A DNA stretch of 64,000 bases from Clostridiales bacterium (GCA_040766525.1 JAXGQI010000007.1:3166-67165), one strand, 5' to 3'; counted from the first letter of the stretch, positions 37,618 through 42,149 are shown. Numbers and translations are program-made. The notes: generated from the sequence alone by a model not told the origin.

Positions 37618-40600
37618 ATGCGTTGGATTCATTTAGCAGATATTCATTACAATCCTGGCATCGAGAAGAATCGAAGCACGAATCAGTTGCGGAAAAAGCT
37701 ACCGCAATATATACGTGATAATGGTATTGTTGCCGATGAAATGTTTATTACCGGTGACTTTCGCAATGCCACCGCCCCCTATGACGATGAAGAATTACTT
37801 GTAAACGATACAGTTGATTTCATTATGGAAATCGCGAATAGCGCCGAAATTGCTGATCCCTCTCATATTCATATTGTACCGGGCAATCATGACCTAACTC
37901 GATCCAACACTTCTCCGAGCATAAAAGAAATTAGATACAATTACGATGTCAATGAAGGTGGGTTTACAACAGATATACTCAGTCAACTAATATCAAGGTT
38001 TGGCTTTTTTGTCAGCATCAATAACAAGCTACACTGTGATAACCCTTGGTGGCCTGCAGAGCTATTACCCTTGCATGTATATAAATGTTACCCAGACTAC
38101 ACTGTGCTCTATTTGAATACATCTTTAACTTGTGGAGACAGCGAGGATAGAGGAAATCTTGTAATTGGTAATAGCGAATTATATCGTGTGCTCGAAGAGA
38201 TAAAAATACATAACCCTAAAATGCCAATCATTGTCTTGGCGCATCATGCGCCAGAACTGTTTAGTGTGGCGGAAAAAGACGCAGTTGAAAAGTTATTTGC
38301 AGATTATCAAGTCCTTTTATATCTTTGCGGAGACGCCCACAAAATGACATGCAGAAAAGTTAATAAGGTTTTAGAATACACCATTGGATGCATGACATTC
38401 GACAAAGAAATACAAGTTACATTTGCCAATGGAGAATTGACGGGAAACACGCACACTGTAACGGCACACTTTTGGGATGTCCATTCAATGTGTTGGGGAC
38501 TATATGACCCTTTTAATCGGTACTATAAAAAGATTAGTATGCCTACCGATGAGATGGAAGAATCAGCGATTGTTCTTGAGGATGACTGGTTTCAAGAACA
38601 AAACGATACTCAAATATTTAACTTGGGACAGAGATATTTACCGGATGTGAATATCTCAACAGGTACCGAGCGCTTTTTCAATTGTATCGCGAGGAATAAT
38701 TACTTCGTAAATAGATTCACTCAAATGGCTGATACCGCCATTAAAGCACTCCGTGAAATAAGAACAACAGAGTATGCGCAGACGGCAAAAAACCTTATTG
38801 AAAAAATAAGCTCGTTTGATTTAGCTGGCGTTAAAACAATCGATTGTACAGATCTATGTTCAATAATTGAAGAAACAACAAAAAAACTTAATAAAGATAT
38901 TAATGAAGAGTTTTCTTCGAAAAAGCCGGATAATTATAAAATCTATTGTTTCCGGAATGCATCTAATGTACTTGACGAATTTATTGACTATTTAAAATCC
39001 GATGAAATTAATCTGGCAAACATGCCGTTTTGTATTATTAGTGGTGAAGGAGGTGTCGGGAAATCCCACTTAATTGCAGATACAGTAACAAAAAGGAATA
39101 TTTTTCACGAAAGGTCAATCCTTCTTTTGGGGCAGCATTTTACGGCGAACGAAGAACCATTCAATCAAATCCTAAAACTATTAAGTCTTAGTTGCTCCGT
39201 TGATGAAATGCTTAATGAATTTAATGAGATAGGAAAACAGCAATCAACGCGCTTTATTATTTTTATTGATGCTCTAAATGAGGGGGGTGGAATTTCAATT
39301 TGGAAGCAGCACTTGCAGGGAATGCTAAAAAAACTTAAATCTTATTCTTGGATAGGTTTTGTAGCTTCCGTCAGGTCACATTATATTGCATCTTTATACA
39401 GAGAAACAAACCTAGAAGAATGTGTTATCAAAATTGAACATAAAGGGTTTTCAACGGTTAGTCTTGAGGCTACTAAAAAGTATTTTGAGCACTATAATGT
39501 GGTTTACACTGACATACCATTATCCATTGAGGAATTTCAAAATCCATTATTTTTAAAGTTGTTTTGTGAAGGGCACCTTGGCCAGCGGGTAAATACAAAT
39601 GATATAAGTTTATTGCAAATATATGGCTATTATTTAGATGAGATAAACAGAAGAACTGCCGAAAAGTGTATGTATAGTGACAGTATTAAAGTCGTGCAAG
39701 AAGCTATCAAGTCGGTTGTTTGCATGAAATACAAGGAGAATAAAGGTAGTAATTATTTGCCTATTGATATGATAGTTGAAGCAATTATTGATGTCGAAAG
39801 AAAATATAACCTTCAAGCCTCTCTTCTTGATGAATTGCTGTCCGTGGGCATACTGACCAAGAATCTTGACTATTCTGGCAAGGAGAGAATATTTGTCACA
39901 TTCGAAAGGTTGAAGACTTTTATATTCTGAAATGTTGGTTGAATCACTTTCAGTTAATGGCATCGACGCATTTGTCGAGGAAAACAAGCGTTTGTTGAGT
40001 AGAGGCGATGTTTTAGAGTTCTTTGCCGTTTTGCTATCCGAAGATACCGGTTATGAAATATTTGAGGTTTTCACAGAGGATTCACCAGAGATACGAGCGG
40101 CGTTTGTTAACAGTCTTAAATGGAGAAATTCGAGGAGCATAACAGATAAACTTTGCCTATATTAACGAGCATGTCCTTTGTTATCAGGGAGTTTTGATGC
40201 ATTTATGCAAACGCTTGTATTATTGTCCACAAAAATTGGCAATCCTCTAAATGCAGATAAAACAGCAGAATATGTAATGGGTTTTGGTATGCCGGATAGG
40301 GATGCCGTATTTATTGAGGTATTTAACAAAGCTTTTTATGGTGATGATTCGCCAATTAACGTTCTGCTGGAGTGGTGCCTAAATAACAGTGAAAAGACAC
40401 GTAATGATACAATTTTGCTTGCGTCAAAAATGGTTGCGCTGTTTCTTATATCCCCCAATAGAGCATTGCGAGATAAAAGCACAATGGCCCTAATTAATCT
40501 ACTTGTTGGAAAAACAGAATTGTTGATTTCACTACTGGATTTTTATAAAGACGCTGACGACCCGTACATTTCAGAACGCCTATTCGCAGTCGCATTTGGC

Positions 40601-42149
40601 TGCATAGTTAGAGAATCTGACCATGAGAAAATTAGATATCTCGCTATACAGGTGTATAATATCGTTTTTAATCAGCCGATTGTATTCCCCAATATTCTTC
40701 TTCGAGACTTCGCAAAAAACATAATCGACTATGCTATTTATATCTTAGGTGATATTAATATTGACAGAGAGAAAGTAACACCACCGTATAATACCGAGTT
40801 TCCTAGTATTCCAGATGATAAGGAGATTGCATCATATTATTATGATTATGAAGAAAGCCGATTTTAAAGATTATTATTGAGTCAAAACACGATTCTTCAA
40901 TCTATGCGAGTAGAATACACGCGTGACAGAAGCCCTTGGGGATATGGTGATTTCGGCAGGTATGTTTTTCAACTTTATTTTAGCGATTGGGAAAGTTTAG
41001 AACCCAATGACTTGATGAACATAGCCGTTAAAAAAATCTGATATGGGATATAATGTCGAAAAACATGGTAAATATGATCGCAAACTCAGGGAAGATTATC
41101 ATGGCATGAACAAAGGCGAGCGCATCGGTAAAAAATATCAATGGATAGCTTTATATGAACTTGCCGCTCGTTGCCGACAACTATCACTTGAATTACATAT
41201 TGATGATCAAGAAACAACAAAATCTGATTATTGCAAAGGTTCTTTTGAACCTTCAATACGGAATATCGATCCAACCATTCGTTGTAGCTTCTCCTAACAA
41301 AAACAAAAAAATATCGACCTCATCTCATGAGGAACTTTGTGATGCTTAACAAGAAATACTGAGTGGGCAGTTGATTTTTCAGACATACCGAATATATCAC
41401 GCTTAATACAGGCAGATTATCAAAACAAAACATACGCTCTCTTAAATGGTTGGTATGTTTGGACAGAAGAAAAGCAGCTCGGTTTTGAAAAATATGAGTT
41501 GCCTCAAAAGGATATGTGGATTAACGCAAACAGTTATATTGTCAAAAAGATCAGTTGGCAAACTATATTAGAAAACTGAGCGATAAAACTTCATGGGAAG
41601 GAGGTTGGCTTAGACCACGAGGTTCGATGATGTTTAATCGGGAGTATTATTGGTCAACTGCCAGCGAGTTTGTTAGAAATCCATACTATTGCGGCGAAGA
41701 ATTAGTCGATATTGTTCTCTATGATGATGAATACTGCGACCTAGAGAAAGTGCTAATCCTCACATATCGGTACTATACGGAAAAAAGTGGCGACACTATC
41801 GACGGGAATAGTCGCTCTTGGTACAAACCATGTGACACGTTATTTAATCGTCTTGACTTGCGGTACGGAAGTGAGGACACCATACTCTTTGATTCCGAGA
41901 AAAACGTGGTCTGCTTTGATAGCCAAGAGTTGTTTGACGAAGATATCGGGTTCTTCGTTGATAAAACGATTTATAAAATTCCTTGAAGAAAATGATTACG
42001 CGGTGTTTTGGACGATCTTAGGAGAAAAACGAATAATCGGTGAGAAGACCAGTTGGGATGATAAAAGAGCCAGAGTAAGCGTTTCGGGAATATATTACAT
42101 GGATAAGTCTAACAATTTAATTGGTCAATTATATAATTTTCCTGAATAA
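37618..42149 (+). pseudogene. giant (~1500-codon) metallophosphoesterase / NACHT-STAND-like NTPase / unknown C-terminal domain protein, broken at about 8 positions (candidate NLR-like defence gene)
   Basis: ATG 37618 after TAGGGAG. Calcineurin-type motifs appear in order: HLADIH, ITGDF, VPGNHD, VLAHHAP, LCGDAH. Walker A GEGGVGKS (39043-39066), Walker B-like IIFIDALNE (39256-39282), then FVASVRS. The reading continues through ORFs 39932, 40178, 41043, 41555 and 41787 plus unlisted segments, after shifts or stops at ~39920, 40163-40165 (TAA), ~40865, the A7 run 41030-41036, ~41285, ~41345, ~41550 and ~41975. Confidence 0.75.

What the first reader, a model, noticed from the sequence alone, without database searches (positions are those of the whole stretch)
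37618..42149. AT-rich island encoding a single giant metallophosphoesterase-STAND/NACHT-like NTPase: a candidate NLR-type antiphage sensor with an unusual effector, now inactivated
The block from about 37.3 to 42.4 kb is clearly AT-richer than its flanks. My spot counts of single 60-nt lines range from roughly 20 to 45 percent G+C, against about one half outside; this needs computing. Stitching ORFs 37618-39930, 39932-40165, 40178-40867, 41043-41297, 41555-41986 and 41787-42149 with the unlisted in-between segments (..MRVEYTRDRSPWGYGDFGRYVFQLYFSDWESLEPNDLMNIAVKKI.., ..EWAVDFSDIPNISRLIQADYQNKTYALLNGWYVWTEEKQLGFEKYELPQKDMWINANSYIVKK..) gives one reading unit of ~1500 codons. The N-terminus has all five calcineurin-like phosphoesterase motifs in order (HLADIH, ITGDF, VPGNHD, VLAHHAP, LCGDAH). 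Residues ~470-600 carry Walker A GEGGVGKS (39043-39066), Walker B-like IIFIDALNE (39256-39282) and a downstream FVASVRS. This is the hhhhD[GA]hxE ... [TS]xR pattern of NACHT/STAND NTPases. The last ~800 codons are helical and unknown, as expected for a sensor domain. Effector, STAND NTPase and sensor in one polypeptide, on a compositionally foreign island next to IS debris, is the logic of Avs/bNACHT antiphage proteins. A calcineurin-type (Mre11/SbcD-like nuclease or nucleotide phosphodiesterase) effector is not one of the named Avs1-5 architectures that I can recall, so intact relatives may represent an undescribed variant. Here the gene carries about eight lesions, including a TAA at 40163-40165.
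Basis: partly seen in the sequence, partly recalled or inferred. Interest (0 to 1): 0.85.

Follow-up and report, generated by a model that had tools for sequence, protein, structure and literature searches.

The report
Decayed Avs2 antiphage gene, phosphoesterase effector
This AT-rich insert carries a broken copy of a known bacterial antiviral sensor (Avs2, which detects a phage DNA-packaging protein) fitted with a rare metal-dependent phosphoesterase as its killing domain; the sensor half is riddled with small frameshifts, while the enzyme-plus-switch half is still a perfect reading frame.

Summary
Window 37300-42450 is 36.9% G+C against 48.9% elsewhere, and it holds one ~1,510-codon gene broken into the listed ORFs. 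A syntenic sister genome has 182 nt where the window has 5,872 nt, so this is an insertion.

The gene is not an unnamed NLR. All fragments match Avs2 (AVAST type 2) profiles in collinear order, and also the solved EcAvs2 structure (9O4E). Residues 1-310 are a calcineurin-like metallophosphoesterase (MPE) with all five motifs; the AlphaFold2 model has pLDDT 94. By fold it is closest to B. subtilis YydB and to Rv0805/GpdQ/SMPDL3 phosphodiesterases, and less close to Mre11. It also has weak sequence ties to the anti-phage proteins DS-8 and DS-9.

Intact MPE-Avs2 fusions exist but are rare: three clusters among 1.84 billion representatives, and two of 185,579 species genomes. They sit beside transposases, a recombinase or AbiH.

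The lesion picture needs correcting. There are about 17 small indels, not about eight lesions. Every premature stop, including TAA 40163, is a by-product of these indels.

All the indels fall after codon 766. The 770-codon MPE+NTPase ORF has none (P about 6e-6). An independent homologue is cut by an IS at codon 761.

Verdict: a dead copy of a known family with a rare, uncharacterised effector variant. Interest is moderate.

The parts
36788..42659 (.). Segment present in the window but absent from the syntenic sister genome (5,872 nt against 182 nt between the DUF6951 and cobB genes). This is the inserted material as a whole.
   Evidence: L049 (GCA_053527415.1) is collinear on both sides, at window 34826-36787 and 42660-43326.
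36812..36950 (.). 139-nt MITE-like element derived from the ends of an IS3-type element. It is the only 'IS debris' near the island.
   Evidence: Dispersed copies lie at 7800-7932, 43458-43596 and 61265-61401. Its two parts bracket the transposase gene pairs at 20296-21736 and 62330-63808.
36951..37303 (-). Short frameshifted ORF remnants of normal G+C and unknown identity.
   Evidence: ORFs 36843-37112, 37030-37194 and 37058-37303 have no Pfam hit.
37300..42450 (.). AT-rich island (G+C 0.369).
37506..42277 (+). Unit shared at 89.6% nucleotide identity with metagenomic contig L004. It comprises the gene plus about 110 nt upstream and about 130 nt downstream, and is probably the transferred module.
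   Evidence: blastn and MAFFT.
37604..37609 (+). Ribosome-binding site AGGGAG, 8 nt before the ATG.
   Evidence: Read directly from the sequence.
37618..39930 (+). Intact 770-codon ORF (MPE effector + helical extension + STAND NTPase). It ends at TGA 39928-39930, which is created by the first frameshift.
   Evidence: No stop and no indel relative to L004. dN/dS is 0.21. It was annotated as a protein in NCBI (P0001).
37618..38547 (+). Calcineurin-like metallophosphoesterase effector domain (residues 1-310). Motifs: D8/H10, G46-D47, G89-N90-H91-D92, H209-H210 and G238..H241.
   Evidence: Pfam PF00149 E 1e-8; PADLOC PDLC00736 E 1e-30; NCBIfam DS8 E 1e-11 and DS9_1 E 3e-8; AF2 pLDDT 94; Foldseek matches.
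38560..39915 (+). Avs2 helical extension and STAND NTPase module (residues 315-766).
   Evidence: PDB 9O4E EcAvs2 residues 160-640, E 1.8e-55; PADLOC and NCBIfam Avs2 models.
39043..39066 (+). Walker A, GEGGVGKS (G476-S483).
   Evidence: Invariant G476, G478, G479, G481, K482 and S483.
39256..39282 (+). Walker B region, IIFIDALNE (D551, E555).
   Evidence: Invariant I550, D551, A552, N554, E555 and G556.
39917..42149 (+). Decayed Avs2 sensor-coding half with about 17 small indels. Net frame changes are at 39917 (-2), 41036 (-2), 41544 (-1) and 41963 (-2). Out-of-frame patches span 40151-40187, 40850-40879, 41170-41185, 41285-41352 and 41587-41622. The original stop is TAA 42147-42149.
   Evidence: tblastn with P0127 and L004, and the nucleotide alignment; PDB 9O4E sensor residues 678-1472, E 7e-91; PADLOC Avs2 hits for every fragment, including 41343-41576.
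42559..43391 (-). Native flanking gene cobB (Sir2-family deacylase), itself frameshifted near 42775. It is not part of the island.
   Evidence: Pfam SIR2 E 9e-49; intact as 245 aa in L049; frames shown.

Best explanation
The island is a horizontally acquired single-gene antiphage module that has been inactivated in this Clostridia genome. The gene belongs to the Avs2 (AVAST type 2) family of STAND NTPase pattern-recognition receptors. Its usual N-terminal effector is replaced by a binuclear calcineurin-like metallophosphoesterase (MPE).

Inferred mechanism in intact relatives:
1. The C-terminal helical sensor binds the ATPase domain of a phage large terminase.
2. The STAND module then tetramerises.
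3. This brings the four N-terminal MPE domains together and switches them on.
4. The MPE hydrolyses phosphodiester or pyrophosphate bonds and so aborts the infection. Nucleotides (dNDP/dNTP, NAD+) are the more likely substrate and nucleic acid the less likely one.

What is shown: family membership, domain order, conserved catalytic and NTP-binding residues, the insertion itself, and the decay. What is inferred from characterised relatives: the trigger, the oligomerisation and the substrate.

In the window, the sensor half has collected about 17 small indels starting at codon 767, so terminase sensing and Avs2-type defence are lost. The first 770 codons (MPE + NTPase) remain an intact, well-initiated ORF.
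For: Avs2 identity:
- Every fragment hits PADLOC Avs2 models in collinear order, covering positions 167-1372 of 1379.
- NCBIfam Avs2 matches the repaired protein at E 5e-261.
- EcAvs2 (PDB 9O4E) matches the NTPase at E 1.8e-55 and the sensor at E 7e-91.
- Of four mapped EcAvs2 terminase contacts, E1362 and E1444 are kept, W1266 is Tyr and E1462 is Ser (contacts from PMC13601566).

MPE effector:
- Pfam score is above the cut-off and all motifs are invariant in 5 fusion proteins and nearly so in 75 homologues.
- The AF2 model has pLDDT 94 and pTM 0.92.
- Foldseek gives YydB TM 0.83, Rv0805/GpdQ/SMPDL3 TM 0.51-0.59 and Mre11 about 0.45.
- The same domain heads TPR-STAND, NACHT, SAVED and TIR proteins and matches the N-termini of DS-8 and DS-9_1.

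Effector swapping: the nearest Avs2 relatives carry SIR2 at the same position.

Precedent for mechanism: Avs2 tetramerises on terminase binding (PMC13601566; bioRxiv 10.64898/2026.08.25.746987). A calcineurin-CE effector depletes dNTPs on assembly (PMC12871103).

Foreign origin:
- G+C is 0.37 against 0.49.
- The sister genome has an empty site.
- The gene is AT-richer than its flanks in every host, for example 0.35 against 0.605 in L001.

Mobile or defence context of intact copies: IS3 transposase, serine recombinase, Toprim/DUF3991 and AbiH.

Decay.
Against: - No member of the MPE-Avs2 clade reaches NCBIfam's curated Avs2 equivalog cut-off. Scores are 788-923 bits, and 870 for the repaired protein, against 1000. 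This is a divergent branch whose trigger could differ.
- One of four EcAvs2 terminase contacts is not conserved.
- Avs2 proteins are known to respond to other phage proteins as well (PMC11564622).
- The effector substrate is untested.
- PADLOC labels the homologous CBASS effector 'Endonuclease', and motif V reads GDAH rather than the classic GHxH.
- The reads are not available, so the indels cannot be verified.
- The intact N-terminal ORF shows that 'dead gene' may not be the whole story.
Confidence: 0.85

Rival explanations
1. The N-terminal 770-codon ORF (MPE + helical extension + STAND NTPase, no sensor) is not debris. It is a product retained by selection, so the locus is a truncated, re-purposed or still partly active gene rather than a fully dead one.
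For: - There are 0 indels in 2,299 nt against about 17 in the following 2,233 nt, although G+C and homopolymer content are the same (P 6e-6 for uniform placement; Poisson P(0) 2.5e-8).
- There is no divergence step at 39917 that would suggest a recombination breakpoint.
- All catalytic and NTP-binding residues are intact.
- Amino-acid changes derived on the window lineage are balanced in the N-half (11 vs 11) and in excess in the sensor half (39 vs 18).
- An independent homologue in Ca. Limiplasma is cut by an IS3 element at codon 761, within 7 codons of the window's first frameshift at codon 767.
- A good ribosome-binding site is present.
Against: - Only two truncations have been observed.
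- In characterised Avs proteins the sensor is needed for activation, so a sensor-less form is expected to be inert (PMC11564622 used a sensor-deleted KpAvs2 as a negative control for binding).
- The 90%-identical copy L004 has a nonsense codon at 431, inside this region.
- There are no expression data.
- The polarised counts are small.
Confidence: 0.25
2. The frameshifts are sequencing or assembly errors, and the organism carries an intact MPE-Avs2 gene.
For: - Every lesion is a small indel and several lie in homopolymers (A7 at 41029-41036; A5/A6 at 41544 and 41963; G and C runs at 40187, 40879 and 41185).
- No real nonsense substitution exists.
- Other genes in the window (P-type ATPase, cobB, ABC-F) also show indel-type breaks.
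- The indel-to-substitution ratio looks high.
Against: - Errors would not spare 2.3 kb of identical composition while hitting the next 2.2 kb 17 times.
- Many long ORFs in the same window are intact, including 952, 848, 732, 725 and 703 aa.
- About half of the indels are outside homopolymers, and several remove or add 2-3 nt.
- There is an excess of window-derived amino-acid replacements in the same half.
Confidence: 0.07
3. The effector is an Mre11/SbcD-type nuclease that degrades DNA, as in nuclease-bearing Avs3 and Avs4, rather than a nucleotide-targeting phosphodiesterase.
For: - PADLOC names the homologous MPE-SAVED CBASS effector family 'Endonuclease' (PDLC00736, E 1e-30).
- Mre11 structures are significant fold matches (E about 1e-6).
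- There is a weak NCBIfam sbcd hit.
- Most characterised Avs effectors are nucleases.
Against: - Mre11 ranks below YydB, Rv0805, GpdQ, SMPDL3A/B, acid sphingomyelinase and purple acid phosphatase (TM about 0.45 against 0.51-0.83).
- The sbcd hit scores 13 bits against a cut-off of 77.65.
- There is no Mre11 capping domain.
- The immune 'calcineurin-CE' clade is predicted to act on nucleotides, and in one case is shown to (PMC12871103).
Confidence: 0.25
4. It is a housekeeping or regulatory STAND protein unrelated to phage defence.
For: None beyond the general fact that many bacterial STAND NTPases are regulators.
Against: - The homology to experimentally validated Avs2 runs the full length.
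- The gene is compositionally foreign and has a patchy distribution, being found in 2 of 185,579 species genomes.
- Its neighbours are mobile elements or AbiH.
- It is absent from the sister genome.
Confidence: 0.02

Closest known systems
EcAvs2, AVAST type 2 from E. coli (PDB 9O4E; PMC13601566)
   Same: It has the same helical extension, STAND NTPase and C-terminal sensor, and they align over EcAvs2 residues 160-640 and 678-1472. The overall length of about 1,500 aa is the same. Two of four mapped terminase contacts are identical and one is a conservative change.
   Different: EcAvs2 has an N-terminal effector of about 160 aa of unknown activity. Here that position holds a 310-aa metallophosphoesterase. 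Identity is only about 30-35%, and the clade scores below NCBIfam's equivalog cut-off. The hosts are Clostridia, and the window copy is broken.
Other Avs2 effector variants: VcAvs2-trypsin with MBL partner (bioRxiv 10.64898/2026.08.25.746987; 10.1101/2025.11.14.688446), KpAvs2 nuclease (PMC11564622) and SIR2-Avs2 (P0133, P0142, P0144)
   Same: They share one chassis with exchangeable N-terminal killing domains. The closest NTPase relatives of this gene carry SIR2 at the same position.
   Different: The effector chemistry differs: a binuclear metallophosphoesterase instead of a protease, PD-(D/E)xK nuclease or NADase. No partner gene is conserved next to the MPE-Avs2 copies.
Calcineurin-CE immune effectors, e.g. 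PUA-Cal-HAD / NCBIfam DS9_1 (PMC12871103; family defined by Nicastro et al. 2023, NAR, not readable here)
   Same: Both are calcineurin-like phosphoesterases placed as the effector of an immune protein and activated on assembly. There is weak but reproducible sequence similarity to DS9_1 (E 3e-8 to 1e-10).
   Different: The sensor differs (a PUA-like nucleotide sensor against a STAND + Avs2 sensor). There is no HAD partner. Motif V here is GDAH/GDSH rather than GHxH. Membership of the defined calcineurin-CE clade could not be tested against its own profile.
MPE-SAVED CBASS effectors (PADLOC PDLC00736; P0081, P0083, P0086; PMC10419184)
   Same: They carry a homologous MPE domain (E 1e-30, profile positions 4-279) used as a cell-killing module.
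   Different: They are activated by a cyclic oligonucleotide through a SAVED domain rather than by a STAND switch, and the proteins are about 560 aa.
MPE-TPR-STAND, MPE-NACHT and DS-8 proteins (P0005-P0079; NCBIfam DS8_antiphage; PADLOC PDC-S60; bNACHT survey, bioRxiv 10.1101/2022.07.19.500537)
   Same: They have the same N-terminal MPE at 40-48% identity, followed by a STAND NTPase and a repeat sensor. This general architecture is already noted in the literature.
   Different: Their NTPase and sensor are NB-ARC/NACHT with TPR repeats, not the Avs2 module. They are far more numerous than MPE-Avs2.
B. subtilis YydB (PDB 9a6c_B, integrative model with YydD)
   Same: It is the best fold match to the effector (TM 0.83, E 6e-24, 22% identity).
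   Different: It is a 481-aa stand-alone protein paired with YydD. I found no paper in the held library that describes a function.

Membership tests
Avs2 (AVAST type 2) | Collinear full-length homology of the NTPase plus the Avs2-specific C-terminal sensor to Avs2 profiles | tested here: met
   PADLOC PDLC02162 covers positions 167-1372 of 1379 across the fragments. Intact relatives score about 1020 bits over positions 134-1375.
Avs2 (AVAST type 2) | Score at or above NCBIfam NF041813 equivalog cut-off (1000 bits) | tested here: not met
   The repaired window protein scores 869.5 bits. P0127 scores 906, L008 886, P0128 923 and P0130 788. This is a divergent clade, and the profile does not include the effector.
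Avs2 (AVAST type 2) | Homology to the experimentally solved Avs2 (EcAvs2, 9O4E), including the helical extension and the sensor | tested here: met
   E 1.8e-55 (residues 315-766 against 160-640) and E 7e-91 (sensor against 678-966 and 1108-1472).
Avs2 (AVAST type 2) | Terminase-contact residues of EcAvs2 (W1266, E1362, E1444, E1462) | tested here: inconclusive
   They read Y, E, E and S respectively. The interface is reported to be redundant (PMC13601566).
Avs2 (AVAST type 2) | Activation by phage large terminase and protection from phage | not testable with these tools
   This needs co-expression toxicity and plaque assays with an intact homologue.
Avs2 (AVAST type 2) | Uninterrupted reading frame (a functional member) | tested here: not met
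   There are about 17 indels after codon 766.
STAND NTPase | Walker A GxxxxGK[ST], Walker B hhhhD..E and a downstream conserved Arg | tested here: met
   G476-S483, D551/E555 and R586-S587 are invariant in the family.
NACHT (bNACHT) clade | Match to the NACHT model PF05729 | tested here: not met
   There is no PF05729 hit. Only sub-threshold nSTAND6, AAA_16 and nSTAND1 hits were found.
Calcineurin-like metallophosphoesterase superfamily | Five metal-binding motifs, Pfam PF00149 above the gathering score, and the alpha/beta sandwich fold | tested here: met
   Pfam gives 36.3 bits against 21.5. The motifs are invariant. The AF2 model has pLDDT 94, and 178 PDB matches at E<=1e-3 are led by MPE-fold enzymes: every one of the top 39 listed hits, and the first 50 listed, belong to this fold.
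Calcineurin-CE (conflict effector) clade | Membership of the clade defined by Nicastro et al. 2023, and an effector position in immune systems | tested here: inconclusive
   The effector position is met. Only weak similarity to DS9_1/PUA-Cal was found (E 3e-8 to 1e-10). The defining paper and its profile are not available.
Mre11/SbcD nucleases | Match to the SbcD/Mre11 models, closest fold neighbours and a capping domain | tested here: not met
   TIGR00619 gives 13 bits against 77.65. Mre11 has TM about 0.45 and ranks 36th or lower. There is no capping domain in the 310-aa module.
CBASS Cap effector (MPE-SAVED) | A SAVED sensor domain and a CD-NTase neighbour | tested here: not met
   Only the MPE part of PDLC00736 matches (positions 4-279 of 561). 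There is no SAVED hit.

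The most novel reading that the evidence does not exclude
Sensor-less MPE-STAND proteins may be a recurrent, selectively retained end state of MPE-Avs2 genes after transfer into new hosts. Two independent events cut the gene within 7 codons of each other, at the NTPase/sensor boundary: a frameshift at codon 767 in the window and an IS3 insertion at codon 761 in Ca. Limiplasma. In the window, the remaining 770-codon ORF has escaped all of about 17 indels. 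The truncated protein could act as a differently triggered or constitutively low-level phosphoesterase switch. Alternatively, truncation at this exact point could be the only way to disarm a toxic immune gene without releasing its effector.
Probability: 0.2. Interest if true: 0.6.

Novelty: new variant of a known kind. Interest (0 to 1): 0.4.

Why it matters
Avs2 is described as the most widespread terminase-sensing immune receptor in bacteria, and its killing domains are mostly uncharacterised. A metallophosphoesterase-armed Avs2 would add a new output chemistry to a receptor whose input is now structurally understood. That output would probably be nucleotide or phosphodiester hydrolysis.

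This makes the intact relatives (L008 from a human-gut Clostridia MAG; P0127, P0128, P0130) convenient test cases for two questions: how STAND tetramerisation activates a binuclear phosphoesterase, and what such 'calcineurin-CE'-like effectors actually degrade.

The window copy is not useful for function. It is a clean example of how a freshly imported immune gene is disarmed. The three closest copies are each inactivated differently (indels, a nonsense codon, an IS insertion), and the pattern of decay is strikingly one-sided.

Tried and rejected
- Word-indexed homology searches with the N-terminal ORF and with a sensor fragment found almost only fragments. The exhaustive search was needed to find intact fusions.
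- P0001 could not be located in the contig index, and cluster look-ups gave no names or accessions. The host is therefore known only as an uncultured Clostridia lineage, from PutP relatives.
- The window's own genome is not among the GTDB representatives scanned.
- Gao et al. 2022 (PMC10028730) and Nicastro et al. 2023 (PMC10681802) are not held. The Nature 2026 Avs survey has no supplements held. I therefore could not check whether an MPE-Avs2 appears in their tables.
- One literature search was wasted on a term that was too general. A search for YydB/YydD found no functional paper.
- A sequence-only PDB search with the MPE domain gave nothing meaningful. The fold search was needed.
- tRNA and Rfam scans of the window and of the repeat region found nothing.
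- The promoter and terminator scan was no better than shuffled sequence.
- I considered that the intact N-half was restored by recombination, because dS is 0.18 there against 0.40 in the sensor half. I rejected it as the main explanation because the identity profile shows no step at 39917 and the first three indels sit inside the most conserved block.
- I considered a composite transposon bounded by the two 139-nt repeats. I rejected it because cobB, which lies between them, is native and syntenic in the sister genome.
- No transposase remnant lies next to the island.

Full report
1. THE OBSERVATION

The AT-rich block is real. G+C is 0.33-0.40 from about 37250 to 42500 in 500-nt windows. It is 0.369 over 37300-42450, against 0.489 for the rest of the window. 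No other 4.5-kb window falls below 0.452 (sd 0.016).

The real start is ATG 37618, preceded by AGGGAG at 37604-37609.

The claim that these pieces are one gene is confirmed by a guide protein. The intact homologue P0127 (1521 aa) aligns to the window over its residues 1-1511 in five consecutive frame segments.

2. WHAT THE GENE IS

All seven ORF fragments, and also the unlisted piece 41343-41576, hit the Avs2 models of PADLOC and NCBIfam. The hits are in collinear order and cover profile positions 167-1372 of 1379.

The only solved structure matched by sequence is EcAvs2 (9O4E). Residues 315-766 match EcAvs2 160-640 at E 1.8e-55; this is the helical extension plus the STAND ATPase. The repaired C-terminal half matches EcAvs2 678-1472 at E 7e-91. 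The 'unknown helical' 800 codons are therefore the Avs2 sensor.

EcAvs2 binds the ATPase domain of phage large terminases and tetramerises (PMC13601566). Of four interface residues tested in that paper, E1362 and E1444 are conserved here, W1266 is Tyr and E1462 is Ser.

No NACHT model matches.

The clade is divergent. The repaired protein scores 870 bits and its intact relatives 788-923 bits on NCBIfam's Avs2 equivalog, below the curated 1000-bit cut-off.

3. THE EFFECTOR

Residues 1-310 are a calcineurin-like metallophosphoesterase (MPE). Pfam PF00149 scores 36.3 bits against a cut-off of 21.5.

The conserved residues are D8/H10, G46-D47, G89-N90-H91-D92, H209-H210 and G238/H241. They are invariant in the five fusion proteins and invariant or more than 90% conserved in 75 homologues.

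An AlphaFold2 model built on that alignment has mean pLDDT 94 and pTM 0.92. Its Foldseek matches in the PDB, in order, are:
- B. subtilis YydB: TM 0.83, E 6e-24.
- SMPDL3A/B, the cyclic-nucleotide phosphodiesterase Rv0805 and the glycerophosphodiesterase GpdQ: TM 0.51-0.59.
- Acid sphingomyelinase and purple acid phosphatases: TM 0.47-0.59.
- Mre11, only after these: TM about 0.45, E about 1e-6.

The same domain, at 30-48% identity, heads many TPR-STAND, NACHT, TIR and SAVED proteins. It also matches:
- the PADLOC CBASS effector family PDLC00736, at E 1e-30;
- PADLOC PDC-S60;
- the N-termini of the NCBIfam anti-phage proteins DS-8 (E 1e-11 to 1e-14) and DS-9_1 (E 3e-8 to 1e-10).

The literature already treats calcineurin-like phosphoesterases as immune effectors:
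- They are listed among bNACHT-fused domains (bioRxiv 10.1101/2022.07.19.500537) and among SAVED-fused CBASS effectors (PMC10419184).
- The 'calcineurin-CE' clade is predicted to attack nucleotides.
- In PUA-Cal-HAD, the Cal domain converts dNDP to dNMP and cleaves NAD+ once the complex polymerises (PMC12871103).

I therefore favour a nucleotide or phosphodiester hydrolase output over an Mre11-like nuclease. The substrate remains untested.

4. RARITY AND CONTEXT OF THE FUSION

An exhaustive HMMER search of 1.84 billion representative proteins gave five matches that span both the MPE and the Avs2 NTPase. Three are intact: P0127 (1521 aa, 53% identity), P0128 (1502 aa, 41%) and P0130 (1517 aa, 32%). 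The other two are the broken P0003 and the fragment P0002.

A pattern scan of 185,579 species-representative genomes found the MPE-Avs2 N-terminal region (query residues 1-760/770) in two of them:
- L008, an uncultured Clostridia MAG, whose 1510-aa gene is intact.
- L009 (the same locus as L001), Candidatus Limiplasma, where the gene is truncated.

The other 39 loci share only the MPE domain. All the clusters are singletons.

The nearest Avs2 relatives by NTPase similarity carry SIR2 or unannotated N-termini. This shows effector exchange at a junction near residue 315.

The contexts of the intact copies are as follows:
- P0127 and L008 have an IS3-family transposase immediately upstream.
- L008 has a serine recombinase downstream.
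- P0128 has a DUF3991/Toprim gene nearby.
- P0130 has AbiH as its neighbour.

In every host the gene is AT-richer than its flanks: 0.35 against 0.605 in L001, 0.30 against 0.43 in L002 and 0.40 against 0.52 in L005.

5. THE INSERTION IN THIS GENOME

The adjacent PutP gene places the host among uncultured Clostridia.

A sister genome (GCA_053527415.1, locus L049; PutP 89% identical) has the same gene order: VanW, Sir2/CobB, DUF6951, PutP. There, 182 nt separate DUF6951 from cobB. In the window the same interval is 5,872 nt, from 36788 to 42659.

The part shared with the 90%-identical metagenomic copy L004 is 37506-42277. It is essentially the gene with its immediate flanks.

6. THE DECAY

L004 is intact apart from one TAG at codon 431 and a scaffold gap.

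Relative to L004, the window has no indel in 37618-39916 and about 17 small indels between 39917 and 41963:
- Four change the frame for good: -2 at 39917, -2 at 41036, -1 at 41544 and -2 at 41963.
- The rest form short out-of-frame patches at 40151/40187, 40850/40879, 41170/41185, 41285-41352 and 41587-41622.

If the frame is restored through the nucleotide alignment, no internal stop codon remains. Every premature stop, including the TAA at 40163, is therefore secondary to an indel.

Pairwise dN/dS against L004 is about 0.2 in both halves. Most of the divergence thus predates the decay.

Polarising with P0127 gives 11 window-derived against 11 L004-derived replacements in the N-half. In the sensor half the counts are 39 against 18, which suggests relaxed constraint there on the window lineage.

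7. THE ASYMMETRY

The two halves have the same G+C (0.366 and 0.373) and the same homopolymer content. Yet all of the about 17 indels lie in the second half. The probability under uniform placement is 6e-6, and the Poisson probability of zero indels in the first half is 2.5e-8.

The identity profile shows no step at 39917. The first three indels lie inside the most conserved block, which is about 96% identical. A recombination breakpoint therefore does not explain the pattern.

Uniform sequencing error does not explain it either. Many long ORFs elsewhere in the window are intact.

Independently, the Limiplasma homologue is truncated by an IS3 element at codon 761. No sensor sequence is left beyond the IS. 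That point is within 7 codons of the window's first frameshift at codon 767.

I read this as a hint, not proof, that the sensor-less MPE+NTPase product is tolerated or retained by selection.

8. VERDICT

The family is the well-known Avs2, so the 'unknown sensor' has a predicted ligand. MPE effectors on STAND proteins are already recognised in general. What is uncommon is the MPE+Avs2 pairing, which I could not find described in the searchable literature. What is unexpected is the one-sided decay.

I could not read Gao et al. 2022 or Nicastro et al. 2023. Either may already list this architecture, and that is the main caveat on novelty.

Noticed in passing
window 7800-7932, 36812-36950, 43458-43596, 61265-61401; also 20296-21736 and 62330-63808: There is a dispersed 139-nt element. 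Its left part (about 60 nt) and right part (about 78 nt) also form the ends of two IS3-type orfA/orfB elements whose interiors are otherwise dissimilar. It therefore looks like a MITE derived from IS ends. No Rfam family matches. The minus strand folds moderately well (z -2.7).
   Followed up: partly
window 43438-43461 and 43612-43635: An exact 24-nt GC-rich hairpin (AGAGGAGGGTTGCCCCTCCTCCGA) is duplicated on both sides of one MITE copy. The sister genome L049 has a single terminator-like hairpin at that site. This suggests the element inserts at hairpins and duplicates them.
   Followed up: partly
window 32033-34742 (+): A P-type cation ATPase is split into three ORFs (555, 152 and 139 aa). 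It has one in-frame stop and at least one out-of-frame patch of the same kind as in the Avs2 gene, so it is a second pseudogene 3 kb from the island.
   Followed up: partly
window 42559-43391 (-): The cobB/Sir2-family gene flanking the island is frameshifted near 42775. Its C-terminus continues in another frame. The orthologue in the sister genome is an intact 245-aa ORF.
   Followed up: partly
window about 58696-60387 (+): The homologue of a 509-aa ABC-F-type ATPase of the sister genome appears only as ORFs of 144 and 259 aa. It is probably a fourth pseudogene in this window, whereas the neighbouring IleRS (952 aa) is intact.
   Followed up: no
window 34826 and 53387-58138, compared with L049: Synteny with the sister genome breaks just beyond PutP. 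The IleRS-ACT-DUF711 block that follows PutP in L049 lies 18 kb away and inverted in the window. This indicates a rearrangement, possibly mediated by the IS copies.
   Followed up: no
L004 1583-1585 (window equivalent 38908-38910, GAG): The 90%-identical metagenomic copy of the gene carries a single TAG nonsense codon at codon 431 and is otherwise intact. The three closest copies (window, L004, L001) are therefore each inactivated by a different kind of lesion.
   Followed up: yes
window 46875-48305 and L049 2212-5305: The sister genome has two tandem MttB-family methyltransferase genes where the window has one ORF of that family. Both L049 copies align to the same window segment.
   Followed up: no
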